64,000 bases of DNA from IMG/VR virus record IMGVR_UViG_3300024341_000001; one strand, given 5' to 3'. The translations under genes were made by a program, and so were the position numbers. This DNA comes from a virus. Taxonomy: Duplodnaviria > Heunggongvirae > Uroviricota > Caudoviricetes. Under the pieces are notes generated by a model. The model saw only the letters and a list, made by a program, of their open reading frames with translations. It searched no databases and had not been told where the DNA came from. Numbering within the stretch: the stretch's first letter is position 1; each line of letters begins with the position of its first letter. Positions 38,389-52,927 of the stretch are shown here, piece by piece.

Positions 38389-38391
38389 TAG

Positions 38392-40084: not shown

Positions 40085-40117
40085 AAAAAAAGTTTTAGGT
40101 CCTTTCGGACCCAAAAC
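40085..40117. terminator. hairpin terminator (clearest on minus strand)
   Basis: GTTTTAGGTCC-tttc-GGACCCAAAAC; the minus strand is followed by a U7 run. Confidence 0.55.
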
Positions 40118-40311
40118 TAATTTGACCCAAAGGCTACATTTAGATTTTCATCATAAAATACAGGACGTACTTGTCCACCATCTGTTCTTGTTAGTCTTGG
40201 ATCGCGCAAGTTCGCAAGTGTTATTGTATCTTCACTAGGTAAAACCTTATACGACTGTAGTGCTTTTATATGAAAATTAGAAAACTTTTTCTTTCTACGA
40301 CGTTTAGCCAT
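40117..40311 (-). CDS. small basic protein
   Basis: MAKRRRKKK N-terminus; GGAGA SD. Confidence 0.3.
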   Translation of the reverse strand: MAKRRRKKKFSNFHIKALQSYKVLPSEDTITLANLRDPRLTRTDGGQVRPVFYDENLNVAFGSN

Positions 40312-40381: not shown

Positions 40382-40789
40382 ATGTTAAAGTCTGCATTAT
40401 TTACAATAAAACAAGACGAATTATTATCAAAAGATAAGCCACTTGAATTCATTTCAACATCTATACTACATGCTTTTAAACAAGTCAATCCAAAAATCAC
40501 AAAAGAATTAATAACAGTTTTTACCCAATTAAAAGGTGATTCAATGTCTTTTTGGGGCGAAGTAGATGAACGCCCATTACTAAAAGAAGATATATTGCAA
40601 ACAGTGGCCAACGCTGTGGATCATATTGGTCCAAATGGTGAAGGGCTCAAAGCACAAATTACGAAGACTGGTACTGAAGTGTGTATAGTAATAGGTTTTG
40701 TTTATAAAGAAATTACACCTGAATTGTTGGAAAAAGAAAATCCACAACACCATAAAAATGTACAAAGATGGATGGAGATAGGCACATAA
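40382..40789 (+). CDS. hypothetical protein
   Basis: 135 aa. Confidence 0.35.
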   Translation: MLKSALFTIKQDELLSKDKPLEFISTSILHAFKQVNPKITKELITVFTQLKGDSMSFWGEVDERPLLKEDILQTVANAVDHIGPNGEGLKAQITKTGTEVCIVIGFVYKEITPELLEKENPQHHKNVQRWMEIGT

Positions 40790-41052
40790 AGCGCACTAAA
40801 ATATTTACATCTGTGCTCGAGAAAGTTAAAAGTGACAATATAAACAAATACGGAGTATTGACATGCGAAATATGCAAACAGCAAATAGAACACGAGATAT
40901 ACCATTTTGATCATATAATACCAGTATCACGGTATTCCAAAAAACGTACTCCCTTTCGTATGAATGGTGTTCGTAATTTACAAATTACGTGTGAGCGATG
41001 CAATTTAAAGAAAAGTAATAAAATAAAGAAAGTGAAATTTAAGACATTATGA
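40768..41052 (+). CDS. HNH homing endonuclease
   Basis: CEICK...HFDHIIPVSR...NLQITCERCNLKKS. Confidence 0.7.
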   Translation: MDGDRHIKRTKIFTSVLEKVKSDNINKYGVLTCEICKQQIEHEIYHFDHIIPVSRYSKKRTPFRMNGVRNLQITCERCNLKKSNKIKKVKFKTL

Positions 41053-41891
41053 AGATATTTGAATTTCGTAGAAATGAATGGGGTATAGCTTTTAAACGCA
41101 TTTCAGATGCGTTGCATAGGTATGCGCCTGATTGGGTCGAATGGACCAACTATGAAAATTGTGACATTATGATTGTTCATGTAGTTGGAGGCGGAGAAAT
41201 TCCTGCATTAGAGATGCCTAAACCGAAAGTGGTGATTCAACATTGTTATTTTACCGCCAGTGCGCATGAAATAGATTACGCAAAATATTGGGCACAATCT
41301 ATTATGGCCGTTTCATTTCATGACTTACGTAAATATACTGATAAAGATATCCCTTATTATGGTATGCCATGGGGTGCAGACGATAATGTTTTTTGTCGCA
41401 CAAATACGGGTAATCGTGCCATTAAAGTAATTGCTACGGGGCATATCGCTGAAACTGAGGCCATAGATAAAGTATATGAAGCAGTCAAACAATTAAAACA
41501 AACTTTATATCATACCGGACAAAATTTTGGATGGGACAAACGATTCTACAGATACTTAGATTATATGCCAGATAATGAGTTCGCTGAGGTACTTAATGGC
41601 ACACAATATATATCAGCGTTACGTTTTATTGAAGGCTTCGAATTAATGGCAATTGAAGGCTTGTTTTGCGGGGCACGCCCGATTATACCAGATGATCCAA
41701 CTTATGATTGGTATCGGGAACATGCATATACAATAGTCAAGGACAAAGATATAGTAGAACAATTAGTTGAAATTCTAAAAGATACCCCGCGACCAATGGA
41801 TGAAAATGAACGCTTAGTGATTGTAAATAAATTTAAATGGTCTCATTTAATTGGAGACTTTTTTACCACTTTAAAACAAAGGATAAATTAA
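41049..41891 (+). CDS. GT-B fold glycosyltransferase (GT4-like)
   Basis: EGFELMAIEGLFCGARPI matches the E-x7-E donor-binding motif EGFGLxxLEAMAxGxPVI. Confidence 0.5.
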   Translation: MKIFEFRRNEWGIAFKRISDALHRYAPDWVEWTNYENCDIMIVHVVGGGEIPALEMPKPKVVIQHCYFTASAHEIDYAKYWAQSIMAVSFHDLRKYTDKDIPYYGMPWGADDNVFCRTNTGNRAIKVIATGHIAETEAIDKVYEAVKQLKQTLYHTGQNFGWDKRFYRYLDYMPDNEFAEVLNGTQYISALRFIEGFELMAIEGLFCGARPIIPDDPTYDWYREHAYTIVKDKDIVEQLVEILKDTPRPMDENERLVIVNKFKWSHLIGDFFTTLKQRIN

Positions 41892-42322
41892 TGGAGGCTC
41901 AAACACGTTACTATGTACCTACTTTTGCCGAACTTATAGATCGTCTTAGTATAGTTATCTTGAAGTCAATATTCGCATCTGAGAATTCTGCAGCATACGA
42001 AGAAGAACAAAAACTTATCATGGCCGATATCAATATGTTATTAACTACAACACCGTCAGTTAGTGCTGATATGATTCGTGCTATATTAATAGTTATGCTA
42101 ACCAATAGGTATATATGGGAGAACGAAAGCAAGGCGCGTGCTGGTGGTTCAGAACAAGATAAACTTTTAAAATTGACGCACTCGATAAATGGTGTACGTA
42201 ATACAGCTAAGAATGTTATTTCGCGTGAACGCGGAGAGCGTGTAGACTTAAAAATAGATGCGCTGGCTGCAGGGTTAATTCAGGAGTTCGGTAATTGGAA
42301 TATATTTAAAGGCGACAAATGA
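41891..42322 (+). CDS. hypothetical protein of the sugar island
   Basis: ATG at 41891 overlaps the upstream stop (TAATG); the track ORF 41837.. is an upstream extension. Confidence 0.3.
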   Translation: MEAQTRYYVPTFAELIDRLSIVILKSIFASENSAAYEEEQKLIMADINMLLTTTPSVSADMIRAILIVMLTNRYIWENESKARAGGSEQDKLLKLTHSINGVRNTAKNVISRERGERVDLKIDALAAGLIQEFGNWNIFKGDK

Positions 42323-43167
42323 AATTAACTGCCGTCGCAACTTGTAGAAATGATGGTTATCGGGGTGATTTACATTTACGAGTACCATTTAGTATTAATG
42401 CATTGACCGCCACATTCGATGAAGTAATTTATGTTGATTGGAATTCACCGTCAGGTATAGACTTGATAACAGCGCTTGGAGATGCCATAAATAAAACAGG
42501 TAAATTACGAGTATTAAAAGTAAATAAGGCACAAACAGATCAAGTCACAAAGAACGATCCTGGTGCGCCGGCAAGTTGTGGGTTACTAGGTAATAATATG
42601 GCAATACGTAGGTCCACAGGAGACTGGATATTAATAACATCATTAGATTCGATTGTACCCGATCGAGCATCATTTGAAAAATTAACCGCAGACCCAAAAA
42701 TAGGTTGGGTCATTTCTAGGCATGATGTAGATTTTGCGGAATTAAAACAATTTAATGCTAAAGATATAGAAGTTGTTCAAAGGTATTTTAGGGAAAATCT
42801 ACCAAGATATGGTGGGCACGGTTTTAGTGGGGCCTGCGCTGGTGATGTGTGGTCTATCCTTGATTGTTGTGGTGATTTTCAGTTTTTTCATAAAGACGTT
42901 TTATTTGAAATACGTGGTTATGAAGAAGAATATTTTTATAAAGGGTACACTGATAGTAATTTAAATAAGAAAGCTATTCTCGCAGGATATCCCGTAAAAC
43001 CATGTTTTGATATCGCTACCATGCATATGAGTCATCCGGGATATGGTTTCGGTGGAACCGGCTCACGAATAAATGACATCTACGGTTGTTTAATAAATGC
43101 AGGTGCTACCAAGAACGCCGCCACATGGGGCGCGTCTCCATTTACATTAGAAGAATTTACTGTATGA
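42319..43167 (+). CDS. GT-A fold glycosyltransferase (GT2-like)
   Basis: IYVDWNSPSG and LITSLDSIVPD resemble the GT2 nucleotide-binding/DXD motifs; RGYEEEYFYKG region. Confidence 0.4.
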   Translation: MKLTAVATCRNDGYRGDLHLRVPFSINALTATFDEVIYVDWNSPSGIDLITALGDAINKTGKLRVLKVNKAQTDQVTKNDPGAPASCGLLGNNMAIRRSTGDWILITSLDSIVPDRASFEKLTADPKIGWVISRHDVDFAELKQFNAKDIEVVQRYFRENLPRYGGHGFSGACAGDVWSILDCCGDFQFFHKDVLFEIRGYEEEYFYKGYTDSNLNKKAILAGYPVKPCFDIATMHMSHPGYGFGGTGSRINDIYGCLINAGATKNAATWGASPFTLEEFTV

Positions 43168-44525
43168 AAATTTTGTTCTGTATATATGAATTGGATTATG
43201 CTGATCATATAGCGATAGCGCACTTATCCGCTATTGCTAAAAAACGTGATCATCAGACATTTTTCTGTGCTTTAACAGATTATCCAACTGTTTTGAATTC
43301 ATATAAACCGGACATTGTAGCTTATTCTTTAAATGTTTATGGATATAAAGAAATGATTGATGCACATAAATTAGCGAAAACAAAACACAATTTTTTATCT
43401 ATAGCTGGTGGGCCTCAGATTACTTTTGCACCGCAAGATTTCGAAAACACGGCCATCGACGCTTTCTGTGTTGGCGAGGGAGATCTTGTATTTGATGACT
43501 TTCTTAAATGTGTAGAAAATAATGAATCCTACGACAATGTTTTAAATATAATAACAAAAGAAAAGATAAATCCTATACGACCACTCATTAGTGACTTAAA
43601 TATTTTGCCCGAAGCGGACAGGGATTTGGTGTTGAATAATTCCTTCTTAAAGAATACTCCTAAAAAAACCTTTTACGCTACAAGGGGATGCCCGTTCTTT
43701 TGTCATTATTGTGCAAATAGCGCGTATCGTGCTTTGTATAAAGGGAAGGGTAAATCTGCTAGACGGTTTTCACCAGATCGAATTATTGATGAAATACAAC
43801 GTGTTCGTAAAAATTATCGCACAGAGTTCATAAAATTCGGGGACGATCTTTTCGCATTAAAAGCAGATAGTTGGCTTGATGCGTTTACCCGTAGATATAA
43901 GAAGGAAGTAGATTTGCCGTTCAATTGCTATTTACGCATTGACCACGTAGATAAAGATTTACTTGCTATGTTGAAGTCCGCCAATTGCTACTCCGTTCAT
44001 CTATCCGTTGACAGTATGTCAGAACATGTGCGCGAAGCAGTATTGGGACGACATATGCAAAAGATCGATGTAACGAAAACAGCGCGTATGATCGCAGATA
44101 CAGGAATACGCACGTGGGTTAATTTTATGTTGGCGGCTCCTGAATCTACGGTGAAAGATGATATGGATATCATTGATTTTGGTTATAAAGGTAAGGTTAC
44201 ATATTTGGCCTGTTCAACTACAGTACCAATGAATGGTACCAAACTTTATGAATATAGTTTACAAAAAGGTATTCTTGATCCAACATATGTAGGAGATATG
44301 ACAGACTGTTCAAAGAAATCCCCGTACAAGTCTTTTTCTGAACGTGAAAAAGAAATACGCTATAATATTTTCTTACTTGGAAGTTTTGCGGCTAAATTAC
44401 CTAATCCATTACGCGCGTGTATGAAATTACTTATACGCTATATAAAACCTAATAAATTATTTATATTTGTCAGAGATAAGTATTACAAGTATAGTATAGA
44501 AAACAGAATTTTTAAATTAGCATAA
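43164..44525 (+). CDS. B12-binding radical SAM enzyme (class-B rSAM, methyltransferase-like)
   Basis: CPFFCHYCAN = CxxxCxxC radical-SAM cluster; N-terminal cobalamin-binding-like domain; ATG 43164 overlaps the upstream stop (ATGA). Confidence 0.6.
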   Translation: MKILFCIYELDYADHIAIAHLSAIAKKRDHQTFFCALTDYPTVLNSYKPDIVAYSLNVYGYKEMIDAHKLAKTKHNFLSIAGGPQITFAPQDFENTAIDAFCVGEGDLVFDDFLKCVENNESYDNVLNIITKEKINPIRPLISDLNILPEADRDLVLNNSFLKNTPKKTFYATRGCPFFCHYCANSAYRALYKGKGKSARRFSPDRIIDEIQRVRKNYRTEFIKFGDDLFALKADSWLDAFTRRYKKEVDLPFNCYLRIDHVDKDLLAMLKSANCYSVHLSVDSMSEHVREAVLGRHMQKIDVTKTARMIADTGIRTWVNFMLAAPESTVKDDMDIIDFGYKGKVTYLACSTTVPMNGTKLYEYSLQKGILDPTYVGDMTDCSKKSPYKSFSEREKEIRYNIFLLGSFAAKLPNPLRACMKLLIRYIKPNKLFIFVRDKYYKYSIENRIFKLA

Positions 44526-44527
44526 TT

Positions 44528-45181
44528 ATGGAATTATTTAGAGAAAAACAAAGAGAAATAACTATTACAAAACAAGAGCTCATTGATTTTGAAAGTGATG
44601 TCGCTGCTCGATGGGAACAAGGGCAAATAAAAGCTCCTGTTCACCTGTCTTTTAATAATGAGGATTATTTGATCGAATTATTTCAATTTATTCATCCAGA
44701 TGACTGGGTGTTTACAACTTGGCGAAATCATTATCATGCATTATTACACGGAGTTCCCAAAGATGAGTTATTAAATAAAATATTGGCAGGCCAAAGCATA
44801 TCATTTCAATCTCCACAACATCATCTTTATACGTCAGCTATCGTTGGTGGTATACTACCTATTGCAGTTGGTGCGGCGGCTGGACTGAAACTAAATCTTA
44901 ACACAACTCGCATGGTGTGGTGCTTTGTTGGTGATATGGCCAGTGAAAGTGGTATCTTTTACGAAGCAGTGAAGTATTCGGTACGTAATGATCTTCCTAT
45001 TCATTTTGTTATAGAAGATAATGGATTAAGCACAAATACGCCAACACAGGAAGCATGGGGTAAATTACGATCGGCCGAATTATTTGTAGATATTGAATCC
45101 CCCGAAAAATATATATCATATTTTAGTTATAAACGTGAACGCTATCCGCATGTAGGGATAGGGAAATGGATACATTTCTAA
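44528..45181 (+). CDS. TPP-dependent enzyme, PP-domain subunit (E1-alpha/transketolase-N-like)
   Basis: GDMASESGIFYEA...N...FVIEDNG = GDG-x(25-30)-N thiamine-diphosphate fold. Confidence 0.55.
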   Translation: MELFREKQREITITKQELIDFESDVAARWEQGQIKAPVHLSFNNEDYLIELFQFIHPDDWVFTTWRNHYHALLHGVPKDELLNKILAGQSISFQSPQHHLYTSAIVGGILPIAVGAAAGLKLNLNTTRMVWCFVGDMASESGIFYEAVKYSVRNDLPIHFVIEDNGLSTNTPTQEAWGKLRSAELFVDIESPEKYISYFSYKRERYPHVGIGKWIHF

Positions 45182-45726
45182 TGGACTATTTTGATGAATT
45201 AAAGCGAGCAATGAAGTATTTGGGCGAACAATCAAATACAAAGTTTATCGGACAATCAGTGGTGTGGGACGGTCATGCCTTATTTAAAAGTTTAGTAGAT
45301 GTGCCAATGGAAAAACGTATTGAATTACCAGTATTCGAAGATTTCCAGATGGGGCTTAGTATTGGTATGGCCTTGGAAGGAATAGTTCCAATCAGTATTT
45401 ATCCAAGAGCCGACTTTTTAATCATAGCTGCGAATCAAATAACTAACCATTTGGCAAATATACGTAAAGTATCCGAAGGCGGGTATAAACCTAAAATTAT
45501 AATACGAACTAGCGTCGGCGCTATCGAGCCGCTATATCCTGGTCCTCAACATTGTCAGGATCATACTGAGGCATTGAAGTTATTATGTCGCGGAGAAATT
45601 GAGGTTGTCCAATTAAAAAGTAAGTATGATATATTATATGCTTATTATATTGCATATACCCGAGAAGATGGTAAGTCTACAATATTAATTGAATACGGTG
45701 ATCTATATCATAAGGTGGAGGCATGA
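45166..45726 (+). CDS. TPP-dependent enzyme, pyrimidine-binding subunit (E1-beta/transketolase-C-like)
   Basis: FIGQSVVWDG...FEDFQMGLSIGMALEG transketolase-type Pyr domain; overlaps the partner gene. Confidence 0.5.
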   Translation: MDTFLMDYFDELKRAMKYLGEQSNTKFIGQSVVWDGHALFKSLVDVPMEKRIELPVFEDFQMGLSIGMALEGIVPISIYPRADFLIIAANQITNHLANIRKVSEGGYKPKIIIRTSVGAIEPLYPGPQHCQDHTEALKLLCRGEIEVVQLKSKYDILYAYYIAYTREDGKSTILIEYGDLYHKVEA

Positions 45727-46436
45727 TCGAGGTAAGTATTTTTGGTGCGGCAATACGTACTAATATTTGGCTTGAGTTATACGAGAATTTTCGCAAGGCA
45801 GGCGTTTCCTTTGAAATGATATTTGCTGGTCCTAACATACCATCATATACTTTACCCGATAATTTTAAACACATTCATACGTCGGTTAAACCCGCACAGG
45901 CAATTGAGATTACCAGACGAGCCTGCACCGGTCGATTTATAATGAATACGGCTGATGATATGTGTTATCCTGACGATATGTTAGCTAGATTTGTAGACGC
46001 GTGGGAAAAAGCACCGAATAAAAAAACAATGTTTTCGGGTAGATATGCCTCCGCAGATCTTATAAGTATTGAGAGTATACAACATTACAATATGAATGTT
46101 ATGACTAGTCCGTTAGTGCCCTTAAATGGATTCTTATCTAGAGAAACATCGGATGAAATCGGAGGGCTTGATACTAATTTTATAGGATTATATTGGGACC
46201 TGGATCGAGCATTACGTCTTTATGAATTAGGCGGACTTGTGCAAATTTTGTGGGATATCGCTGCATATGAAACACAGCCACATCAATTGTTAAATAATTA
46301 TGGTGCGGCAGATCGTATGTATTTAAATTTTCTTTATGGGGAATATGGGAAACAGAAAAGAAAGAAACCAGTAGATCATTATAAGGATAATGATCTATTA
46401 ACAATATCACAGGGGCAAAAAGGAAGCTGGACATGA
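45723..46436 (+). CDS. hypothetical protein of the sugar island
   Basis: 237 aa. Confidence 0.3.
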   Translation: MIEVSIFGAAIRTNIWLELYENFRKAGVSFEMIFAGPNIPSYTLPDNFKHIHTSVKPAQAIEITRRACTGRFIMNTADDMCYPDDMLARFVDAWEKAPNKKTMFSGRYASADLISIESIQHYNMNVMTSPLVPLNGFLSRETSDEIGGLDTNFIGLYWDLDRALRLYELGGLVQILWDIAAYETQPHQLLNNYGAADRMYLNFLYGEYGKQKRKKPVDHYKDNDLLTISQGQKGSWT

Positions 46437-47386
46437 AAAAAATATTAGTTTGTGGTTGCACAGGATTTATGGGGTATAATATTTCGTATTATTTTAGACA
46501 CGATTACGAAGTAGTGGGCGTTGCTCATACTAAAGCAAATTGTCCTGATAATATAAAATTATTATCGTGCGATCTAACAACGCAAAAAGGCGTAGATCAT
46601 GTGATGAGTTATGGCCCATATGATGTAATAATTCAAGCAGCCGCAACAACATCTGGATCGAAAGATATAACAACAAAACCTTACATACATGTAACTGACA
46701 ATGCTGTAATGAACTCATTGTTATTACGTGCGGCTTATGAACACAGTGTACCGCAGTTTATATTCCTGAGTTGTGGGGTGATGTATCAACCTGGGGACAC
46801 GCCGAGAAAAGAAACGGACTATGATGAATCGGATAAAATAGTACCGGCTTATTTTGGTGTCGGGTGGACTAAGGTATATATCGAAAAAATGTGTTAATTT
46901 TATTCAAGATTAGGTCGTACTAAACATATGGTTATACGACATTCGAATACTTTTGGACCACAAGATAAATATGATTATGAGCACTCACATGTATTCGGCG
47001 CCACGGTTAGAAAAGTAATGGATGCGGAGTACGGAGACACGATTACGGTGTGGGGTAATGGCACTGATACAGCACGCGATTTGATCTATGTCGACGATGT
47101 AGTACATTTTATTGATTTGGCTATTAACTTACAACATAAACCATACGATTTAGTGAATGTGTCTTATGGCAAAGCTATAACTGTAAAAGAAATGGTTGAA
47201 AGTATTATAGTGCAATCAGGCAAGGATTTAAAAATAACATATGACACTTCTAAACCCGCGATTCCAACTATTCTAGCGTTAGATAATAATAAAGCATTAG
47301 TTGACTATGGATGGAAGCCGCTACATACATTTTCACAGGGTATTTTTAAAACAATGAAATGGTATGGATCTGAATTTAAAGGCTAA
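46433..47386 (+). CDS. NAD-dependent epimerase/dehydratase interrupted by one in-frame TAA (46895..46897)
   Basis: GCTGFMG Rossmann motif. YFGVGWTKVYIEKMC = YxxxK block. The TAA sits in frame at one residue position of the conserved segment, and ...RHSNTFGP continues in the same frame (46928..47386 in the track). Confidence 0.5.
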
Positions 47387-48143
47387 ACAATTACGTAAGA
47401 AAATGTTTGAGACTGCGGTAAGGGCTGGTCGCGGTCATCTTGGCGGTGCGTTGTCATGCATGGACATATTAGTGTCGTTATATTATGGCGATATTGTTAC
47501 AAATGATACTAAATTTATTTTAAGTAAAGGCCATTCTGGGATTGCTTTATATACTGTACTTGCGGAACGTAACATTATATCTAACACCGAATTACATACA
47601 TTCTGCAAAAATGGTAGTTTGTTATCAGAGCATCCTAACAATCATATTCCTGGAATCATAACTATAACAGGATCGTTAGGTAATGGACTTGGTATTGGCG
47701 CAGGAATAGCTTTTGCCAAAAAACTTAATAATACTCCGGACAATGTTTTTGTATTAATGGGAGATGGCGAGTGCAATGAGGGGTCAGTGTGGGAAGCCGT
47801 ACGTTTTGCAGCTGTTCATGCCCTAACAAATTTACGAGTCATTGTTGATTGCAATGGATTTCAGTCCACCGATGCTGTGGATAAAAACACCACATATAGA
47901 CAGTTAATGAAAATATGGTCGGCATTTGGATGGATGTCGTATGTTGTGGATGGACACAATATTTTGCATTTGATAGAAGCCTATAAAAATGCATCTATAG
48001 TAACACCGACAGTTTATATAGCTCGTACAGTAAAAGGTAAAGGAATATCCTTTATGGAGAATAATGTAACAAGTCACCACGGATTACCAAATAAGGGTGA
48101 TACAATTTCTGCATTGGAGGAATTATCATATGGACTTGCGTGA
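47364..48143 (+). CDS. transketolase, N-terminal subunit
   Basis: GHLGGALSCMDI, SKGH, GSLGNGLGIGAGIA, MGDGECNEGSVWEA, IVDCNG. Confidence 0.7.
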   Translation: MDLNLKAKQLRKKMFETAVRAGRGHLGGALSCMDILVSLYYGDIVTNDTKFILSKGHSGIALYTVLAERNIISNTELHTFCKNGSLLSEHPNNHIPGIITITGSLGNGLGIGAGIAFAKKLNNTPDNVFVLMGDGECNEGSVWEAVRFAAVHALTNLRVIVDCNGFQSTDAVDKNTTYRQLMKIWSAFGWMSYVVDGHNILHLIEAYKNASIVTPTVYIARTVKGKGISFMENNVTSHHGLPNKGDTISALEELSYGLA

Positions 48144-49008
48144 TGCTATTTTTAATGAATTAATATTATTGGCAGATACATCTAAAGATGTATTTATATT
48201 ATCAGCCGACATGGGTGCTACCGAATTAGACAAATTTAAAGCAAAATATCCAAAACAATTTGTCAATGTTGGTATATCAGAACAGAATCTCATAAACGTT
48301 GCTGCCGGCATGGCAATGGAAGGTAAGAGAATATATGTATACACTATTGCCGCATTTCTTATTCAACGTGCCTTAGAACAGATAAAAGTAAATCTATGTG
48401 CTATGAAGTTACCTGTTACGTTAATAGGCATCGGTGGTGGGATGAGTTATAGTTATGATGGATTAACACATCATATACCACAAGACATAGGAATCTTGAA
48501 TACATTACCTAATATTGAAATTTTTGTACCTTTTGATGAAAGTAGTATGAGGAATTCGGTACATATTCTCAAGAACTCAACGACACCTCGGTATATTCGA
48601 CTTGACAAAGGAATTTATCCAGACTTACCAGCAATAACTTCCAATAATTATGTTCATGTTTTGAGGCAAGGAAGAACTCGGGCCGTTTTAACTTATGGCA
48701 CTTTAACGCACGAAGCATTGGATACTTTTCCGGAGGCTGGATGCATTTGTGTAGAGCGATTAAAACCATTAGATGAGGGTGAATTTCTGAAAGCCATAAA
48801 ACCATATCAAGAATTAATAGTATATGAGGAACATTCAAAAATAGGTGGATTAGCCTCTATTGTAGCATCGCTTTTATTACAACATGGGTTGGACAAGAAA
48901 TTAAATGTTTATGCGTTTGAAGATGAATATTGTAATATAGCGGGAGATCGTATTTATATCAATAATAAATTTTTAAAGAAAGTGGAGAGTAATAATGTCG
49001 TGGACTGA
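48097..49008 (+). CDS. transketolase, C-terminal subunit
   Basis: GISEQNLINVAAGMAMEG pyrimidine-binding motif plus C-terminal domain. Confidence 0.7.
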   Translation: MIQFLHWRNYHMDLRDAIFNELILLADTSKDVFILSADMGATELDKFKAKYPKQFVNVGISEQNLINVAAGMAMEGKRIYVYTIAAFLIQRALEQIKVNLCAMKLPVTLIGIGGGMSYSYDGLTHHIPQDIGILNTLPNIEIFVPFDESSMRNSVHILKNSTTPRYIRLDKGIYPDLPAITSNNYVHVLRQGRTRAVLTYGTLTHEALDTFPEAGCICVERLKPLDEGEFLKAIKPYQELIVYEEHSKIGGLASIVASLLLQHGLDKKLNVYAFEDEYCNIAGDRIYINNKFLKKVESNNVVD

Positions 49009-49699
49009 TCATGGTGCCGTGAATACAATTAAGGGGTTAGCAAGGGAATTTAAAGTAGAAACATATATAGAAACAGGCACATTTCGAGGACAAGGAATAC
49101 AAATAGCGGCGCGTTATTTTAAACACGCTTATTCATGTGAAATCATTGAGGATTTTTATACTGATGTTGTGTTAAGAACTATAAATAAACATAATATAAA
49201 AATTTTCCACATGGATAGTTCAAAATTCTTAAAATATATATCTACAACATTAAATGAACCGCTCATTTATTATTTGGATGCTCATTTTTACGATCCCAGT
49301 CTACCTAAAGAATTACGTTTTGTTGTAAAACAAGAATTAGCATCAATGGCCCCATCCAATAACTGTATCATTATAATACATGATTTTGATACTAGAAACG
49401 GATTAGGCCATATTACATATGACGGCATACCTTTGGATTTTGAGATAGTGCGTGATAACCTTTTGAAGATAAATCCGCGATTTTCTTTTTATACCAATTA
49501 TAAAGAAGCCTGCGATATAGTAACCGAGAAAGACTTCATAGATGGTAAAATGGATCCGTTGTTGCTTGACGATGAAATGAGAGATACGTTAAAATTCATA
49601 TGGTCAGCCCCACAGAAAACTTATCGTGGGCTATTGTACTGTATACCTAGAGATGTAAATGCATCTAAATATCATTTAAGAAAGGTGAATTGGAGATGA
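48995..49699 (+). CDS. putative SAM-dependent methyltransferase (FkbM/TylF-like)
   Basis: YIETGTFRGQG glycine-rich motif-I-like segment. Confidence 0.35.
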   Translation: MSWTDHGAVNTIKGLAREFKVETYIETGTFRGQGIQIAARYFKHAYSCEIIEDFYTDVVLRTINKHNIKIFHMDSSKFLKYISTTLNEPLIYYLDAHFYDPSLPKELRFVVKQELASMAPSNNCIIIIHDFDTRNGLGHITYDGIPLDFEIVRDNLLKINPRFSFYTNYKEACDIVTEKDFIDGKMDPLLLDDEMRDTLKFIWSAPQKTYRGLLYCIPRDVNASKYHLRKVNWR

Positions 49700-50421
49700 A
49701 TGTACTAATAACTGGCGGAACGCATGGTATCGGATGGGCCATCGCTAACAGATTTGCTATCGACGACCGTAACGAACATATTTATATAGCTGCTCGACAT
49801 GTAGATGATTTAGCTCATTCCTATGTATATGAAGGTATACAAGCCGATTTTACGAACACAGTAGATATAGGAAAAGTTGCTGAACAGATAAAGAATCTAC
49901 ATATCGACATTCTTATAAATAATGTAGGAGGTGGAGGGCGTTGGGGTACAGATGATGTTTTAACAACTCCCGAAGAATCTTGGGATGGTGTGATATTAAA
50001 AAATTATGAAACGGCACGACAGTTAACCCTGGCCGCGTTGCCGTGGATGAAACAAAATAATTTTGGCCGCGTTGTTACTATTTCGTCCATCTATGGTAAG
50101 GAATCCGGAGGACGTCCGTGGTTCACTGTAGCAAAAGCAGCTGAGATTGCGTTAATGAAATCGTTAGCGATACGAAAAGAACTGGTTCGACATAATATTA
50201 CATTTAATACGGTATGTCCTGGTGCGATAGCAATTCCTGGGACGGGATGGGATAAATTAACGCCGGAAGAAAGAAGTACATTCGAGGAAACATTACCGTT
50301 AGGGCGTATGGGAACGCCGGAAGAAGTTGCCGCTTTGGTTTGCTTCTTATGTTCGGAAGAGGCGAGTTTAATAAATGGAGCATGTATAACCGCAGATGGC
50401 GGAGAAAGCAGGAGTTTTTAA
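49690..50421 (+). CDS. short-chain dehydrogenase/reductase (SDR)
   Basis: LITGGTHGIGWAIA = TGxxxGIG; catalytic Ser/Tyr/Lys region. Confidence 0.6.
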   Translation: MEMNVLITGGTHGIGWAIANRFAIDDRNEHIYIAARHVDDLAHSYVYEGIQADFTNTVDIGKVAEQIKNLHIDILINNVGGGGRWGTDDVLTTPEESWDGVILKNYETARQLTLAALPWMKQNNFGRVVTISSIYGKESGGRPWFTVAKAAEIALMKSLAIRKELVRHNITFNTVCPGAIAIPGTGWDKLTPEERSTFEETLPLGRMGTPEEVAALVCFLCSEEASLINGACITADGGESRSF

Positions 50422-51419
50422 TGTTGAGACAATCAGAATACGATGAATTTAGAGGAAAGAAAGTTTTGGTAATAGGCGGCACAGGATTAATAGGTCGTCC
50501 TGTTGTTGATATTTTAGTTAACGCCGGCGCCATCGTTACTGTGGTATCATTAGACGATCTTCAGCCAAATCGATTAGCAGAATATGTATATTTGGATCTA
50601 CGATATTTCAATGCCGCAGAGTTTATAACTAAAGGAATGGATTATGTATTTCATTTGGCGGGTATCAAAGGATCGATTGAAGTTACAAAAACGAAACCAG
50701 CTAGTTTTTTTGTGCCCTTGTTACAATTTAATACAAACATACTTGAAGCATGTCGTATTAATAACGTAAAAAAAGTCGCCTTCACTAGTTCTATTGGCGC
50801 ATACGAAAGTGCTGAAATATTTCACGAAGACGGTATAACGCAAGGGCTACCGATGGATATGTATCCAGGTTGGGCAAAGCGCATGGCTGAGTTACAAATA
50901 CAGGCTTATAAAGAACAATACGGTATTAAAAATTTTGTCGTATTGCGTCCTTGTAATGTCTATGGTCCTGGAGATAACTTCGATCCAAATAATGCAATGG
51001 TTGTGCCTTCGTTGATGTATCGTATTGCTTCGGGCGAGAACCCTGTAAAAATATGGGGGGATGGTTCAGCAATTCGTGACTTTGCTTATAATGTAGATGT
51101 AGCTGAGGGTATTATACAAGCAATGCATTATATGCCAGATGTAAATTATATTAATTTGGGCAGTGGCAAGGATTATACAATAAAAAATTTAGTTGATACA
51201 CTACATGAGTTTATTGATTTCAATCATGAATGGGATACAACAAAATCAAACGGATTTCCAAAACGCGTTATGGATATAACGAAAGCGCGTATGTTAATAA
51301 ACTTTGAACCTATCACTACATTACGCGATGGATTAGAACATACGTGGAAATGGTTTTTAGCAAACAAAGAAGAGTATTTAAAGAGAAAGAATTATTTTAA
51401 TGAAGATAATAGACACTAA
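50421..51419 (+). CDS. NAD-dependent NDP-sugar epimerase/reductase
   Basis: VLVIGGTGLIGRPV Rossmann; YPGWAKRMAE YxxxK; ATG 50421 overlaps the SDR stop (TAATG); the track start 50340 is an extension. Confidence 0.55.
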   Translation: MLRQSEYDEFRGKKVLVIGGTGLIGRPVVDILVNAGAIVTVVSLDDLQPNRLAEYVYLDLRYFNAAEFITKGMDYVFHLAGIKGSIEVTKTKPASFFVPLLQFNTNILEACRINNVKKVAFTSSIGAYESAEIFHEDGITQGLPMDMYPGWAKRMAELQIQAYKEQYGIKNFVVLRPCNVYGPGDNFDPNNAMVVPSLMYRIASGENPVKIWGDGSAIRDFAYNVDVAEGIIQAMHYMPDVNYINLGSGKDYTIKNLVDTLHEFIDFNHEWDTTKSNGFPKRVMDITKARMLINFEPITTLRDGLEHTWKWFLANKEEYLKRKNYFNEDNRH

Positions 51420-51909
51420 ATTTGAAAAAGCAAAATTAATTATACCAGAGGTATTCTATGATTTTCGTGGCGAATACTTAGAGACCTTCAACAAAGAGAA
51501 CTACAAAGCATTAAATGTACCAGATGAATTTATACAAGATGATATTTCAATTTCATACAAGCATGTCCTTCGAGGATTCCACGGTGATTTTAAAACATGG
51601 AAATTGGTACAATGTGTGTACGGCAGTATATACGTTGTTATTATTGATAATAACAAAGAGTCTAAAACATATTATCAATGGCAAGCATTTACACTAAATG
51701 ACAAAAATCGTTATCAGTTATTAGTGCCGCCAGGATTCGGCAATAGTCTGCTAGCTATGACGGACATTATCGTGTATAGTTATAAGCAGACTACATATTA
51801 TGAACGTGCGTCGCAGTTTACTATAGCTCCATTTAATCCTTATCTAGGAATTTACTGGCCGATAGCAAAAGAGAACATTATTATATCAGAAAGGGATAGA
51901 AATGCCTAA
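51400..51909 (+). CDS. dTDP-4-dehydrorhamnose 3,5-epimerase-like (RmlC cupin)
   Basis: DFRGEYLETF, VLRGFHGD, KLVQCVYGSIYVVIID, LLVPPGFGNS follow the RmlC motif order. Confidence 0.65.
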   Translation: MKIIDTKFEKAKLIIPEVFYDFRGEYLETFNKENYKALNVPDEFIQDDISISYKHVLRGFHGDFKTWKLVQCVYGSIYVVIIDNNKESKTYYQWQAFTLNDKNRYQLLVPPGFGNSLLAMTDIIVYSYKQTTYYERASQFTIAPFNPYLGIYWPIAKENIIISERDRNA

Positions 51910-52927
51910 TTATCTTATAACCGGTGCCACTGGATTTGTTGGTTCACATATGATTGATTATTTATTAGCTAATACTGATGGCATGATTTACGCTTCTAGA
52001 CGTTGGCGCAGTCGTGACGAGAATATAGTACATTTGTACGGTAATCCGCGAGTCAATTTCATAGAGGCGGATCTGATGGATCGTGGCAGTCTAAGTTTGT
52101 TATTGCGAAAAGCAAAACCAGATATTATTTGGCATTTTGCCGCCCAGAGTTTTCCTGAAACGAGTTTTATTTATCCGATACATACTTTACAAACAAATAT
52201 CATTGGAACTGCCAATTTATTAGATGAAATACATCTTGCGGTATTAGATGGCCGTATAGATCCGATTATAGTAAGTGTTAGTTCCAGCGAAGTATATGGT
52301 ATGCCGGATCCTTCAGAAGTGCCTATAAAAGAAACTAACCCAATTAGAGCGGCAAATCCATATAGTATATCAAAAGTCGGACACGATCTGATGTCACAGT
52401 ATTATCATAAAGCATTTGGATTAAAAATAATAACTACCAGGATGTTTAGTCACGAAGGTGCACGCCGGGGAAGGAAATTTGCATTATCTAGTTTTGCATA
52501 TCAAATTGTACAAGGCGAAATGCAGTATAGACAAGATATAAATAATCGCTCTTATGGAAATTCAAAATATATAATTCGTGTGGGAAATCTTAATTCTGTG
52601 CGCACTTATGCTCATATAGACGATGCTGTACATGCTTATTGGTTAGCCGCCAATAAATGTACAGTCGGCGAAGTTTATAATATAGGTGGCAATCACACAT
52701 GTACTGTCGGTGAAGCATTAAATGATTTAATATCTAAAAGTTATATACAACCAACTGATTTCAAAATAGAAATAGATTTAGCATTAATCAGGCCTACTGA
52801 TATTACACTACAAATACCCGATTGTACTAAATTTATGCAAGCTACTGGATGGAAACCAACAAAAGGTCTTGATGATATAAATAAGGATCTTTTAATTTAT
52901 TGGAGAAACGTATTGCGCCGGTCGTAA
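51902..52927 (+). CDS. NDP-sugar 4,6-dehydratase/epimerase (extended SDR)
   Basis: ITGATGFVGSHMIDYLL; SSSEVYG; YSISKVGHD YxxxK. Confidence 0.6.
   Translation: MPNYLITGATGFVGSHMIDYLLANTDGMIYASRRWRSRDENIVHLYGNPRVNFIEADLMDRGSLSLLLRKAKPDIIWHFAAQSFPETSFIYPIHTLQTNIIGTANLLDEIHLAVLDGRIDPIIVSVSSSEVYGMPDPSEVPIKETNPIRAANPYSISKVGHDLMSQYYHKAFGLKIITTRMFSHEGARRGRKFALSSFAYQIVQGEMQYRQDINNRSYGNSKYIIRVGNLNSVRTYAHIDDAVHAYWLAANKCTVGEVYNIGGNHTCTVGEALNDLISKSYIQPTDFKIEIDLALIRPTDITLQIPDCTKFMQATGWKPTKGLDDINKDLLIYWRNVLRRS

What the first reader, a model, noticed from the sequence alone, without database searches (positions are those of the whole stretch)
41049..52927. 12-kb nucleotide-sugar tailoring island embedded in the virion late operon
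Between the structural genes there is a contiguous rightward block of about 17 genes. It holds a GT-B and a GT-A glycosyltransferase. It holds a B12-binding radical-SAM enzyme (CPFFCHYCAN). It holds two separate two-subunit thiamine-diphosphate enzymes: a PP/Pyr pair at 44528/45166 and a classic split transketolase at 47364/48097. It also holds an FkbM/TylF-like methyltransferase, an SDR, an RmlC-type 3,5-epimerase, three extended-SDR NDP-sugar dehydratase/epimerase/reductases, and two unknowns. No nucleotidylyltransferase (RmlA/ManC-type) is present, so the pathway would start from a host NDP-sugar. Taken together, the RmlC/4,6-dehydratase/reductase set, the C-C bond-forming TPP enzymes and the cobalamin radical-SAM enzyme look like a pathway for a branched-chain or C-methylated 6-deoxy sugar. 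That chemistry is typical of antibiotic sugars and rare O-antigens. I am not aware of it being described as a phage-encoded system. Its position inside the late operon suggests glycosylation of virion proteins. Hypermodification of phage DNA or of the host envelope are less likely alternatives.
Basis: partly seen in the sequence, partly recalled or inferred. Interest (0 to 1): 0.85.

Follow-up and report, generated by a model that had tools for sequence, protein, structure and literature searches.

The report
Variable sugar-making cassette in jumbo phage
A roughly 215-kb phage carries a tightly packed 12-kb block of 15 genes that remodels a GDP-linked sugar, probably adding carbon branches, and attaches it to an unknown target; phage sugar clusters are already known, but this enzyme set is not.

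Summary
Window 41049-52927 is a co-directional, overlapping block of 15 genes. They form 16 ORFs here because one gene carries a nonsense codon. Twelve genes have significant profile hits and the other three are assigned more weakly or not at all.

The block encodes:
- three soluble glycosyltransferases (one GT-B, two GT-A);
- a radical-SAM enzyme with a B12-binding-type domain;
- a minimal E1alpha/E1beta thiamine enzyme;
- a split transketolase-like enzyme;
- a methyltransferase-like protein and a classical SDR;
- two GDP-fucose-synthase-like reductases;
- an RmlC-type epimerase;
- a dehydratase closest to GDP-manno-heptose 4,6-dehydratase.

It is not chimeric. The same DNA and the same junctions recur in at least 16 independent assemblies. 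Composition is flat across the borders.

Relatives of about 200 kb carry a cassette at the same locus, after the head genes and before a DNA ligase. It always opens with the same GT-B gene, but the contents differ.

The chemistry is GDP-based rather than dTDP-based. A C2-branched 6-deoxy sugar is the best inference. The acceptor is unresolved: virion proteins are my favoured target, the host envelope is the published reading for such clusters, and DNA is less likely.

Polymorphic sugar clusters in jumbo phages and cyanophages are already described, so this is a new variant of a known kind.

The parts
41049..41891 (+). GT-B fold, GT4-like (retaining-type) glycosyltransferase, 280 aa. It is the conserved first gene of the cassette in all relatives.
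   Evidence: AlphaFold2 pLDDT 95.9, pTM 0.91. Foldseek PDB top hits are 7qsg mannosyltransferase, MshA, BshA and PimA at E about 1e-11. E195 and E203 (the EX7E motif) are invariant in 32 homologues. phrog_2170 glycosyltransferase E = 1.5e-4. Homologues open the cassette in L013 and L014.
41891..42322 (+). Conserved 143-aa protein of unknown function.
   Evidence: No significant family hit. Homologues sit in sugar islands of L013 (76% identity), L016 (44%) and L010 (25%).
42319..43167 (+). GT-A-like glycosyltransferase, 282 aa, restricted to this phage lineage.
   Evidence: Only 4 homologues among 5.8 billion proteins. The AlphaFold2 model has low confidence (pLDDT 61, pTM 0.70). All top Foldseek hits are GT-A enzymes: K4CP 4.9e-6, PcManGT, WrtF, SpsA.
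43164..44525 (+). Radical-SAM enzyme with an N-terminal B12-binding-type domain, 453 aa. It could be a C-methyltransferase or an AprD4-like sugar dehydratase.
   Evidence: Pfam Radical_SAM 5e-15; B12-binding 9.5e-6, below the gathering score. All NCBIfam hits fall far below their cut-offs. Best PDB hits are AprD4 6fd2 at 3e-12 and TokK at 6.8e-7. The CPFFCHYC motif is visible in the sequence.
44528..45181 (+). Minimal E1alpha-like thiamine-diphosphate (PP-domain) subunit, 217 aa.
   Evidence: Pfam E1_dh 3.8e-15. phrog_34187 1e-41. More than 5000 homologues. The GDM...EDNG thiamine-binding motif aligns to that of 1um9.
45166..45726 (+). Minimal E1beta-like (Pyr-domain) subunit, 186 aa, lacking the C-terminal transketolase_C domain.
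   Evidence: Transket_pyr 1.8e-3. PDH E1beta NF006667 5.3e-7. It matches the C-terminal half of phrog_34187 at 7.1e-28. It always follows the alpha gene in relatives.
45723..46436 (+). GT-A / GT2-like glycosyltransferase, 237 aa.
   Evidence: 529 family representatives. A profile of 81 members hits SpsA 1h7l at E = 0.0018 and heparosan synthase. 15 of 81 members match PF00535, best 3e-6. D78 is invariant and D79 is conserved in at least 90% of members.
46433..47386 (+). GDP-fucose-synthase-like extended SDR, 317 aa, interrupted in this window by an in-frame TAA at 46895-46897.
   Evidence: Pfam Epimerase hits to both halves, covering profile positions 1-153 and 166-238. The codon is GAA (Glu) in L003, L005 and L006. 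It is the only difference from L003 in 20,510 bases.
47364..48143 (+). N-terminal chain of a split transketolase-like enzyme, 259 aa.
   Evidence: Transketolase_N 6e-25. PDB 6yak split-chain TK N component 1.2e-51, with the active-site His residues aligned.
48130..49008 (+). C-terminal chain of the split transketolase-like enzyme, 292 aa, with an altered phosphate pocket.
   Evidence: Transket_pyr 2.3e-26 and Transketolase_C 3.9e-9. PDB 6yaj 7.5e-33. The equivalents of yeast His469 and Ser386 are Gly and Ala. The same change is seen in phage homologues of L010 and L014.
48995..49699 (+). Probable class-I SAM methyltransferase-like protein, 234 aa; family not assigned.
   Evidence: No Pfam, NCBIfam or PHROG hit. 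A two-sequence profile hits the methyltransferase 1vbf at E = 0.0025 over residues 23-76. Homologues lie in L013 (39% identity) and L015 (46%) islands.
49696..50421 (+). Classical short-chain dehydrogenase/reductase (FabG-like), 241 aa.
   Evidence: adh_short_C2 1.3e-38. NCBIfam FabG-type hits are all below their cut-offs.
50421..51419 (+). Second GDP-fucose-synthase-like extended SDR (4-ketoreductase/epimerase type), 332 aa.
   Evidence: Pfam Epimerase 4.9e-43. NCBIfam GDP-L-fucose synthase 6.5e-44. PDB 1bws/1bsv about 7e-32.
51400..51909 (+). RmlC-type cupin 3,5- (or 3-) epimerase, 169 aa.
   Evidence: dTDP_sugar_isom 1.1e-42. TIGR01221 5.4e-40. PDB hits to dTDP RmlC enzymes (1.5e-30) and to C. 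jejuni GDP-heptose epimerases 7m14, 8dak and 8db5 (1e-27 to 1e-29) are nearly equal.
51902..52927 (+). NDP-sugar 4,6-dehydratase closest to GDP-manno-heptose 4,6-dehydratase, 341 aa.
   Evidence: GDP_Man_Dehyd 9e-64. PDB 7us5 GDP-D-glycero-D-manno-heptose 4,6-dehydratase 4.8e-61; next are Rmd 2pk3 at 1.9e-44 and GDP-mannose dehydratases at about 1e-25. The SSSEVYG and YSISK motifs are visible in the sequence.
40768..41052 (+). Flank: free-standing HNH endonuclease gene abutting the cassette start. Not part of the pathway.
   Evidence: Pfam HNH 2.6e-8. An HNH gene occupies the same position in L013.
52947..54980 (+). Flank: LigD-N phosphoesterase plus ATP-dependent DNA ligase. It is the conserved downstream boundary of the cassette.
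   Evidence: LigD_N 1.7e-10 and ligase domains. phrog_114 2.5e-25. It holds the same position in L014 and in the P0123 contig.

Best explanation
This is the variable glycan cassette of a jumbo myovirus of about 215 kb.

What is shown: the gene content, the operon-like packing, its presence in many independent assemblies, and its replacement by differently composed cassettes at the same locus in related phages.

What is inferred (the mechanism):
1. A host-made GDP-sugar, either GDP-mannose or GDP-D-glycero-D-manno-heptose, is 4,6-dehydrated by the 51902 product to a GDP-4-keto-6-deoxy sugar.
2. The RmlC-type cupin (51400) epimerises it.
3. The minimal E1alpha/beta thiamine enzyme (44528/45166) adds a two-carbon unit from a 2-oxo acid to the keto carbon. 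This is what PDH-E1-like pairs do in branched-sugar pathways.
4. The two GDP-fucose-synthase-like reductases and the FabG-like SDR reduce the ring and side-chain ketones.
5. The radical-SAM enzyme and the methyltransferase-like protein add a methyl group or remove a hydroxyl.
6. The split transketolase-like enzyme lacks two canonical phosphate-binding residues. It most likely performs a second C2 transfer on a non-canonical substrate rather than ordinary pentose-phosphate chemistry.
7. Three soluble glycosyltransferases then build a short glycan on a cytoplasmic acceptor.

I favour virion proteins as the acceptor, made late alongside the head and tail genes. The conserved GT-B enzyme would prime a conserved phage acceptor, and the variable genes would set the glycan type.
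For: Gene families.

GDP chemistry: the dehydratase hits 7us5 at 4.8e-61, and both reductases are closest to GDP-fucose synthase.

Three glycosyltransferases.

No protein has a membrane-spanning segment. There is no flippase, polymerase or initiating phosphoglycosyltransferase.

A core of dehydratase plus minimal E1alpha/beta plus GDP-fucose-synthase-like reductases recurs in six other phage-like loci: L010, L012, L013, L015, L016 and L017. An RmlC-type epimerase is present in all but L016.

Precedent: E1alpha/beta-like enzymes add a C2 branch at C4 of NDP-4-keto-6-deoxy sugars after 4,6-dehydration and 3,5-epimerisation (PMC4802897).

The transketolase-like C chain has Gly and Ala where the canonical phosphate-binding His and Ser sit, in three independent phage islands.

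Locus: the cassette always follows the homologue of the 260-aa gene at 39299 and precedes the ligase. It always starts with the GT-B gene, with differing content.

Not chimeric: the sequence is 99.985-100% identical in four listed assemblies from four sequencing runs, out of 16 contigs read. GC content is flat at 0.34-0.39 across the borders.
Against: - No enzyme activity, glycan or acceptor has been observed; the whole mechanism is inferred from homology.
- Every NCBIfam hit is below its curated cut-off.
- The E1-like subunits are about 60% of the length of characterised branching enzymes and are distant from any solved structure (best 5.4e-9).
- The radical-SAM enzyme could be a dehydratase rather than a methylase.
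- The transketolase could simply supply sedoheptulose-7-phosphate for heptose synthesis.
- No sugar-activating enzyme was found in the window, so the starting substrate is a guess.
- The published interpretation of comparable phage clusters is host-surface remodelling (PMC7824862; PMC9602691), and nothing here excludes it.
- The block is separated from the head genes by a minus-strand ORF with a terminator and by an HNH gene, so co-transcription with structural genes is not shown.
- In this window one reductase gene carries a nonsense codon.
Confidence: 0.42

Rival explanations
1. The cassette and chemistry are the same, but the target is the host envelope. The glycosyltransferases act at the inner face of the membrane on host undecaprenyl-linked O-antigen, capsule or S-layer glycan intermediates. 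This changes the surface of the infected cell and blocks adsorption of competing phages.
For: This is the published reading of polymorphic sugar and glycosyltransferase clusters in jumbo phages and cyanophages (PMC7824862; PMC9602691). Cassette polymorphism between related phages mirrors O-antigen locus diversity. O-antigen glycosyltransferases are also soluble or peripheral, so the absence of membrane segments does not exclude it.
Against: No lipid-carrier enzyme, flippase, polymerase or ligase is present. The first glycosyltransferase is conserved across phages whose remaining genes differ, which fits a phage-borne acceptor better than variable host intermediates. The block lies between the head and tail modules. 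No lysogeny genes were seen among the window ORFs scanned. Host-surface remodelling has not been demonstrated experimentally for any of the cited phage clusters.
Confidence: 0.28
2. The glycan is attached to phage DNA, as glycosylation of a hydroxymethylated or hydroxylated pyrimidine, to evade restriction and CRISPR.
For: Phages are known to hypermodify DNA with diverse glycans using their own glycosyltransferases (references cited in PMC12619734; bioRxiv 10.1101/2025.06.16.659550 listed). All cassette proteins are cytoplasmic. The neighbouring gene is a DNA ligase. Diversifying selection would also explain the cassette polymorphism.
Against: Pfam or PHROG found no dNMP hydroxymethylase, TET/JBP dioxygenase or thymidylate-synthase-like gene in about 60 window ORFs, though most of the genome is unseen. 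The GT-B model matches MshA, BshA and PimA-type GT4 enzymes, and no T4 alpha- or beta-glucosyltransferase appears in the top 50. The phage assembles at 99.99% identity from many ordinary shotgun runs.
Confidence: 0.1
3. The thiamine enzymes are ordinary auxiliary metabolic genes. The transketolase would boost the pentose-phosphate pathway or sedoheptulose-7-phosphate supply, and the E1 pair would act on pyruvate. They merely sit next to a simple GDP-6-deoxy-sugar pathway, and no branched sugar is made.
For: The N chain keeps the catalytic His residues and is about 50% identical to an active split transketolase (6yak). Sedoheptulose-7-phosphate is the heptose precursor, and the dehydratase is heptose-type. 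Cyanophage islands holding the E1-like gene also hold heptose-activation genes.
Against: The phosphate-pocket His and Ser are replaced in three independent phage island transketolases. Both NCBIfam transketolase scores together (230 + 102 bits) stay below the 488-bit cut-off. The E1 pair lacks any E2/E3 partner and the beta C-terminal domain. It is embedded in sugar islands in every context read here (eleven distinct cassettes). L010 packs three thiamine systems into one sugar island.
Confidence: 0.1
4. The window is a chimeric assembly, and the island is bacterial contamination joined to phage DNA.
For: None found.
Against: Both junctions (glycosyltransferase side and ligase/sheath/PolA side) are reproduced at 99.985-100% identity in independent assemblies from different runs, and the protein occurs on contigs up to 215 kb. 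GC and skew are continuous across the borders. Related phages have a cassette at the same locus.
Confidence: 0.01

Closest known systems
Polymorphic sugar-production, sugar-modification and glycosyltransferase clusters of jumbo phages and T4-like cyanophages (Iyer et al. 2021, PMC7824862; S-SM2, P-TIM68, S-SCSM1)
   Same: Both have several NAD-dependent epimerase/dehydratase paralogues, a cupin sugar isomerase/epimerase and one or more glycosyltransferases. Content differs between related phages. The minimal E1alpha/beta enzyme is shared with S-SM2 and P-TIM68 at 39-41% identity, as a fused 'transketolase central region' protein, phrog_34187.
   Different: This cassette has no sugar kinase, SIS isomerase or nucleotidyltransferase in the window. 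It adds a split transketolase-like enzyme and a radical-SAM enzyme with a B12-binding-type domain; the word 'transketolase' does not occur in PMC7824862. It sits at a fixed locus between the head genes and a ligase, anchored by a lineage-specific GT-B gene.
GDP-6-deoxy-heptose and modified-heptose pathways of Campylobacter jejuni capsules (4,6-dehydratase 7us5; cupin 3- and 3,5-epimerases 7m14, 8dak, 8db5; GFS-like C4 reductases 7m13)
   Same: The enzyme trio is the same, and these are the closest solved relatives of the dehydratase (4.8e-61). The epimerase matches at 1e-27 to 1e-29.
   Different: The heptose-activation genes (GmhA, HddA, GmhB, HddC) are absent from the window. The reductases are nearer to E. 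coli GDP-fucose synthase than to the C. jejuni reductases. The thiamine and radical-SAM enzymes have no counterpart in those pathways, as far as I know.
PDH-E1 alpha/beta-like two-carbon branching enzymes of antibiotic sugars (Plm8/Plm9 for paulomycose, AviB1/AviB2 for eurekanate; YerE is the analogous single-chain enzyme for yersiniose)
   Same: A two-subunit E1-type thiamine enzyme is encoded next to an NDP-sugar 4,6-dehydratase and a 3,5-epimerase (PMC4802897).
   Different: The phage subunits are much shorter (217 and 186 aa) and lack the beta C-terminal domain. They are only remotely similar to any E1 (best PDB 5.4e-9). The sugar is GDP-linked rather than dTDP-linked, and the activity is untested.
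Virus-encoded virion glycosylation (mycobacteriophage capsid and tail-tube glycans, Freeman et al. 2023 as cited in PMC12619734; giant-virus glycan clusters, from my own knowledge)
   Same: The virus carries its own glycosyltransferases, and in giant viruses its own rare-sugar pathways, with clade-specific variation.
   Different: No glycan has been shown on this phage. The mycobacteriophage systems, as far as I know, use a few glycosyltransferases and host sugars, not a 15-gene tailoring pathway.

Membership tests
Jumbo-phage / cyanophage polymorphic sugar-modification clusters (PMC7824862) | One to four paralogous NAD-dependent epimerase/dehydratase genes plus a cupin sugar isomerase | tested here: met
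   Three extended SDRs and one RmlC-type cupin.
Jumbo-phage / cyanophage polymorphic sugar-modification clusters (PMC7824862) | One or more glycosyltransferase genes as the mainstay of the cluster | tested here: met
   Three: one GT-B and two GT-A.
Jumbo-phage / cyanophage polymorphic sugar-modification clusters (PMC7824862) | Polymorphism of the cluster between related phages | tested here: met
   L013, L014 and the P0122 and P0123 contigs have the same locus and the same first gene but different content.
Jumbo-phage / cyanophage polymorphic sugar-modification clusters (PMC7824862) | Complete clusters carry PfkB sugar kinases and nucleotidyltransferases that make the NDP-sugar | tested here: not met
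   Pfam found none in about 60 ORFs of the window. More than two thirds of the genome is unseen.
GDP-sugar 4,6-dehydratase (GMD / GDP-manno-heptose dehydratase clade) | Extended SDR with a catalytic Ser/Thr-x-Glu and a YxxxK motif | tested here: met
   SSSEVYG and YSISK are visible in the translated sequence. Pfam GDP_Man_Dehyd 9e-64 over the full length.
GDP-sugar 4,6-dehydratase (GMD / GDP-manno-heptose dehydratase clade) | Closer to characterised GDP-sugar dehydratases than to dTDP-, CDP- or UDP-sugar enzymes | tested here: met
   7us5 scores 4.8e-61, against 4.3e-24 for dTDP-glucose dehydratase 1g1a. The NCBIfam equivalog cut-offs are not reached.
GDP-sugar 4,6-dehydratase (GMD / GDP-manno-heptose dehydratase clade) | Substrate is GDP-manno-heptose rather than GDP-mannose | not testable with these tools
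   Needs an enzyme assay.
E1 alpha/beta-type C2-branching enzymes of NDP-4-keto-6-deoxy sugars (AviB1/B2, Plm8/9) | Two subunits homologous to 2-oxo-acid dehydrogenase E1 alpha and beta, with a thiamine-diphosphate binding motif | tested here: met
   E1_dh 3.8e-15. PDH E1beta NF006667 5.3e-7. The GDM...EDNG motif aligns to 1um9.
E1 alpha/beta-type C2-branching enzymes of NDP-4-keto-6-deoxy sugars (AviB1/B2, Plm8/9) | Full-length E1 architecture (alpha about 330 aa; beta about 330 aa with a transketolase_C domain) | tested here: not met
   The subunits are 217 and 186 aa, and the beta subunit has no Transketolase_C hit. The sizes of the characterised enzymes are from my own knowledge.
E1 alpha/beta-type C2-branching enzymes of NDP-4-keto-6-deoxy sugars (AviB1/B2, Plm8/9) | Encoded with an NDP-sugar 4,6-dehydratase and a 3,5-epimerase | tested here: met
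   True in this window and in L010, L012, L013, L015, L017 and the P0123 contig. L016 has the dehydratase but no RmlC-type hit.
E1 alpha/beta-type C2-branching enzymes of NDP-4-keto-6-deoxy sugars (AviB1/B2, Plm8/9) | Carboligation of a 2-oxo-acid-derived C2 unit onto the keto sugar | not testable with these tools
   Needs an enzyme assay.
Transketolase (EC 2.2.1.1), split-chain type | N and C chains homologous to the split transketolase, with catalytic His residues and a thiamine motif | tested here: met
   6yak 1.2e-51 and 6yaj 7.5e-33. The His residues align.
Transketolase (EC 2.2.1.1), split-chain type | Phosphate-binding residues of the sugar-phosphate pocket (yeast Arg359, Ser386, His469, Arg528; numbering from my own knowledge) | tested here: not met
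   The His469 equivalent is Gly and the Ser386 equivalent is Ala. The same holds in the L010 and L014 homologues. The Arg359 equivalent is kept.
Transketolase (EC 2.2.1.1), split-chain type | Reaches NCBIfam's curated transketolase score | tested here: not met
   NF004559 scores 230 bits (N chain) and 102 bits (C chain), against a cut-off of 488.
Cobalamin-dependent (class B) radical-SAM methyltransferases | CxxxCxxC radical-SAM core | tested here: met
   CPFFCHYC motif; Radical_SAM 5e-15.
Cobalamin-dependent (class B) radical-SAM methyltransferases | A functional N-terminal cobalamin-binding domain and methyl-transfer activity | tested here: inconclusive
   B12-binding scores 25.9 bits, below the gathering score of 32.1. 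The best solved relative is AprD4, a dehydratase; to my knowledge it does not use cobalamin. The methylase TokK comes next.
Phage virion glycosylation systems | A glycan covalently attached to capsid or tail proteins | not testable with these tools
   Needs virion glycoproteomics.
Phage DNA glycosylation systems | An enzyme that makes the hydroxymethyl or hydroxy pyrimidine acceptor, plus a DNA glycosyltransferase | tested here: inconclusive
   No such enzyme was found among the scanned window ORFs. No T4 AGT or BGT appears among the top 50 structural matches of the GT-B protein. Most of the genome is unseen.

The most novel reading that the evidence does not exclude
A widespread and so far uncharacterised phage module makes carbon-branched or chain-extended rare sugars. 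It consists of a GDP-sugar 4,6-dehydratase, usually a cupin epimerase, a minimal E1alpha/beta thiamine enzyme and reductases. Here it is extended by a non-canonical split transketolase and a radical-SAM enzyme. Jumbo phages would display these sugars on their own virions. Cassettes swapped at a fixed head-proximal locus would create phage 'glycotypes', analogous to bacterial O-serotypes.
Probability: 0.25. Interest if true: 0.8.

Novelty: new variant of a known kind. Interest (0 to 1): 0.58.

Why it matters
If the inferred chemistry is right, phages carry thiamine-dependent sugar-branching enzymes that have only been studied in antibiotic producers and a few O-antigens. They carry them in a stripped-down two-subunit form of about 400 residues. 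That form has more than 5000 metagenomic homologues, and it sat in a phage-like sugar island in every context read here. This gives a defined, testable enzyme family: phrog_34187, currently labelled 'unknown function'.

The fixed locus, with a conserved first glycosyltransferase and a swappable tailoring set, offers a natural comparative system. It could settle an open question: whether large phage sugar clusters decorate the virion, the host surface or the DNA. Published work has assumed host-surface modification without experiments.

If the cassette only makes an ordinary 6-deoxy sugar for the host envelope, it is one more example of a known class of auxiliary genes.

Tried and rejected
- Megablast of 24 kb against 50,697 GenBank phages found no match.
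- Viral-contig scans with the radical-SAM enzyme, the ligase and the sheath protein found no relatives. The scan with the capsid protein found only two short contigs that end before the cassette.
- PHROG, Pfam and NCBIfam searches, including E up to 10, gave nothing usable for 41891-42322. They gave nothing direct for 42319, 45723 or 48995, so those needed homologue profiles or structure prediction.
- tblastn of 48995 against phages gave one marginal hit in an unannotated record.
- The FkbM/TylF assignment of 48995 could not be confirmed.
- Rfam and ARAGORN found no RNA genes or introns in the window.
- Promoter-like sites are no more frequent than in shuffled sequence (84 found against a mean of 84.4), so I drew no transcription-unit conclusion from them.
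- I considered stop-codon recoding as the cause of the in-frame TAA and rejected it. The other assemblies read GAA at that site, and all other genes read normally with code 11.
- I considered phosphonate biosynthesis (thiamine decarboxylase plus a B12 radical-SAM enzyme) and rejected it. There is no PEP mutase, and the thiamine enzymes are of the E1/transketolase type, not the decarboxylase type.
- I considered nonulosonic-acid synthesis. There is no NeuB or CMP-transferase here, although L012 combines them with the E1-like pair.
- Literature searches for this gene combination in phages returned nothing specific.
- I did not walk the rest of the genome for sugar-activation genes, because look-ups are limited to 10 kb on each side.

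Full report
**1. Setting.** The window is phage DNA. It encodes:
- a terminase large subunit in two ORFs (28815-29624 and 29706-31475);
- a protein with a head-protease-like region (33426-35192);
- a major head protein (37416-38330);
- a tail sheath (57016-58659);
- a family-A DNA polymerase in two ORFs on the minus strand;
- a sigma factor and a transglycosylase.

The exact proteins of the island occur on contigs up to 215,168 bp. Relatives lie on contigs of 215,066, 203,470 and 198,583 bp. The phage is therefore a jumbo myovirus of roughly 200-215 kb. It has no near match among 50,697 GenBank phage records.

**2. The observation.** The block 41049-52927 is real and its coordinates are exact.
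- It holds 15 genes on the + strand, with spacing from a 23-base overlap to a 2-base gap.
- Twelve genes have significant profile matches. Section 3 lists them.
- There are 16 ORFs here because 46433-46897 and 46928-47386 are one 317-aa gene cut by an in-frame TAA at 46895-46897. Three other assemblies read GAA (Glu) there. That base is the only difference from L003 in 20,510 bases. It is a nonsense variant or a consensus error, not recoding.

**3. Gene by gene.**
- **41049** is a compact GT-B, GT4-type glycosyltransferase. AlphaFold2 gives pLDDT 95.9. Foldseek matches a mycobacterial mannosyltransferase, MshA, BshA and PimA at about 1e-11. The EX7E glutamates are invariant.
- **41891** is a conserved 143-aa protein with no assignable family.
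- **42319** is probably GT-A. The model has low confidence (pLDDT 61, pTM 0.70), but every top structural match is a GT-A enzyme. Only four homologues exist in 5.8 billion proteins.
- **43164** is a radical-SAM enzyme with a sub-threshold B12-binding domain. Its best solved relatives are the diol dehydratase AprD4 (3e-12) and the methylase TokK (6.8e-7). Its reaction type is open.
- **44528 and 45166** are a minimal E1alpha-like PP subunit (217 aa) and an E1beta-like Pyr subunit (186 aa). Together they equal phrog_34187, a fused 405-aa phage family of unknown function.
A profile of 81 homologues reaches SpsA at E = 0.0018, and 15 of 81 members hit PF00535. D78 is invariant and D79 nearly so.
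- **46433** and **50421** are both closest to GDP-fucose synthase.
- **47364 and 48130** are the two chains of a split transketolase-like enzyme. They match 6yak at 1.2e-51 and 6yaj at 7.5e-33.
- **48995** has only weak class-I methyltransferase similarity (1vbf, E = 0.0025). The FkbM/TylF label is not confirmed.
- **49696** is a FabG-like SDR.
- **51400** is an RmlC-type cupin.
- **51902** is a 4,6-dehydratase. Its best solved relative by a wide margin is GDP-D-glycero-D-manno-heptose 4,6-dehydratase: 7us5 at 4.8e-61, then Rmd at 1.9e-44, then GDP-mannose dehydratases at about 1e-25.
- None of the 15 proteins has a membrane-spanning segment.

**4. Not an artefact.** The same sequence, including both junctions to phage genes, is present at 99.985-100% identity in the four listed assemblies from four sequencing runs, out of 16 contigs read. 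GC content (0.34-0.39) and skew are continuous across the borders. The chimera hypothesis is refuted.

*A fixed locus with variable content.*
- In L013, L014, and the P0122 and P0123 contigs, a cassette sits after the homologue of the 260-aa gene at 39299. These phages have capsid or neck proteins 50-81% identical to the window's.
- In L014 and the P0123 contig the cassette runs up to the LigD-N/ATP ligase gene. L013 and the P0122 contig end before that point.
- The cassette always opens with the GT-B gene (49-65% identity where measured, in L013 and L014), but the rest differs.
- L013 has a different radical-SAM enzyme, a DJ-1/PfpI protein and full-size E1 subunits.
- L014 has a miniature transketolase-like pair.
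- The P0123 contig has an eight-gene minimal version with an FkbM methyltransferase.

*A widespread core module.*
- The minimal E1alpha/beta pair has more than 5000 homologues.
- In every context I read, it lies in a sugar island. These contexts are cyanomyophages S-SM2 and P-TIM68, a 735-kb uncultured phage, L010, L012, L013, L015, L016, L017 and the P0123 contig. Wherever annotation was available the pair lies next to a GMD-like dehydratase, and next to an RmlC-type epimerase in all annotated metagenomic loci except L016. In S-SM2 and P-TIM68 an RmlC-type gene is not evident.
- The metagenomic loci look like phage, with RNR, sigma factor, RecA, UvsW or ClpP genes nearby.
- L010 carries three thiamine systems in one island: ALS-like, split transketolase and minimal E1.

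**6. Mechanism (inferred).**
- The dehydratase and both reductases point to GDP-sugar chemistry, not dTDP.
- The association of a 4,6-dehydratase, a 3,5-epimerase and an E1alpha/beta-like enzyme is the one used to attach a pyruvate-derived two-carbon branch at C4 of NDP-4-keto-6-deoxy sugars. Examples are Plm8/Plm9 and AviB1/B2, with YerE as an analogue (PMC4802897).
- The SDRs would reduce the ring and branch ketones.
- The transketolase-like enzyme keeps its catalytic histidines. It has Gly and Ala where canonical transketolases have the phosphate-binding His and Ser (yeast His469 and Ser386; numbering from my own knowledge). The same substitutions occur in the L010 and L014 homologues.
- It also fails NCBIfam's transketolase cut-off.
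- I therefore think a non-canonical C2 transfer is more likely than plain sedoheptulose-7-phosphate supply, but the latter is not excluded.
- No activating enzyme was found in the window, so the substrate would come from the host or from an unseen part of the genome.

**7. The acceptor.** This cannot be decided from sequence.

For a phage-borne cytoplasmic acceptor, virion proteins first:
- all proteins are soluble;
- there is no lipid-carrier machinery;
- a conserved priming glycosyltransferase is paired with variable tailoring genes;
- the locus lies between the head and tail modules.

Against over-reading the position:
- a minus-strand ORF with its own terminator (40117-40311) and an HNH gene separate the block from the head genes;
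- the next gene downstream is a ligase.

The published view of comparable clusters is host-surface diversification to exclude other phages (PMC7824862; PMC9602691). That view is also untested. DNA glycosylation is less likely for two reasons. No base-hydroxymethylating enzyme was seen in the window, and the GT-B enzyme resembles GT4 enzymes rather than T4-type DNA glucosyltransferases.

**8. Novelty and score.**
- Large polymorphic sugar and glycosyltransferase clusters in jumbo phages and cyanophages are already known, and the E1-like gene is already catalogued as a family of unknown function.
- Apparently not described are the thiamine-dependent carbon-carbon chemistry in these cassettes, the non-canonical split transketolase clade, the radical-SAM component, and the fixed head-proximal locus with a conserved first glycosyltransferase. 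Literature searches found nothing on them.
- I rate this a new variant of a known kind, with interest about 0.58.

Noticed in passing
window 46895-46897: An in-frame TAA splits a 317-aa GDP-fucose-synthase-like gene into two ORFs. Three other assemblies read GAA (Glu) at this site. It is the only difference from L003 in 20.5 kb, so it is a nonsense variant or a consensus error.
   Followed up: yes
window 28815-31475: The terminase large subunit is encoded in two ORFs (28815-29624 and 29706-31475). The C-terminal half of the first ORF matches phrog_85, a profile labelled thymidylate synthase. This suggests an inserted mobile element. Rfam found no intron at gathering threshold.
   Followed up: partly
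window 60037-62106 (minus strand): The family-A DNA polymerase is split into two ORFs (60037-60837 and 61090-62106) with a gap of about 250 bases. The same arrangement is present in the independent assemblies L003 and L004.
   Followed up: no
window 2844-3374 (-), 21158-21667 (+), 40768-41052 (+): There are three free-standing HNH endonuclease genes. One abuts the start of the sugar cassette, and L013 has an HNH gene at the same position.
   Followed up: partly
window 52947-54980; P0123 contig: The ligase is a fusion of a LigD 3'-phosphoesterase domain with an ATP-dependent ligase. In a relative the same gene is further fused to an SNF2-type helicase (1064 aa).
   Followed up: no
window 38358-38420 and 40091-40311: A strong terminator-like hairpin follows the major head gene, and an 11/12 promoter-like site comes right after it. 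A 64-aa minus-strand ORF with its own terminator interrupts the rightward gene block. L013 has a 67-aa minus-strand gene at the same place.
   Followed up: partly
window 39299-40081: This 260-aa gene immediately upstream of the cassette is conserved in relatives. On reading the sequence, it looks like an N-terminal Ig/FN3-like region followed by a four-cysteine zinc ribbon. It is a candidate neck or decoration protein and a possible glycan acceptor. This is an untested impression.
   Followed up: no
L010 5135-11194; L014 15249-16332: Other phage sugar islands hold further thiamine enzymes. L010 has an ALS/YerE-like 548-aa enzyme, a split transketolase and the minimal E1 pair. L014 has a miniature transketolase-like pair of 208 and 158 aa. 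All the transketolase-like C chains lack the canonical phosphate-binding His.
   Followed up: partly
L010 (NCBI/JGI contig of 164,629 bp): NCBI labels a protein of this contig as 'Candidatus Omnitrophica bacterium'. The contig carries NrdD, a UvsW-like helicase and a sigma factor next to the sugar island. It is probably a phage binned into a bacterial MAG.
   Followed up: no
L017 2304-5048; L012 15032-20642: L017 has a 914-aa radical-SAM protein containing an intein, next to its sugar genes. L012 combines the minimal E1 pair with NeuB, a CMP-sugar synthetase, SAM synthetase, QueF and a B12-dependent methionine synthase.
   Followed up: no
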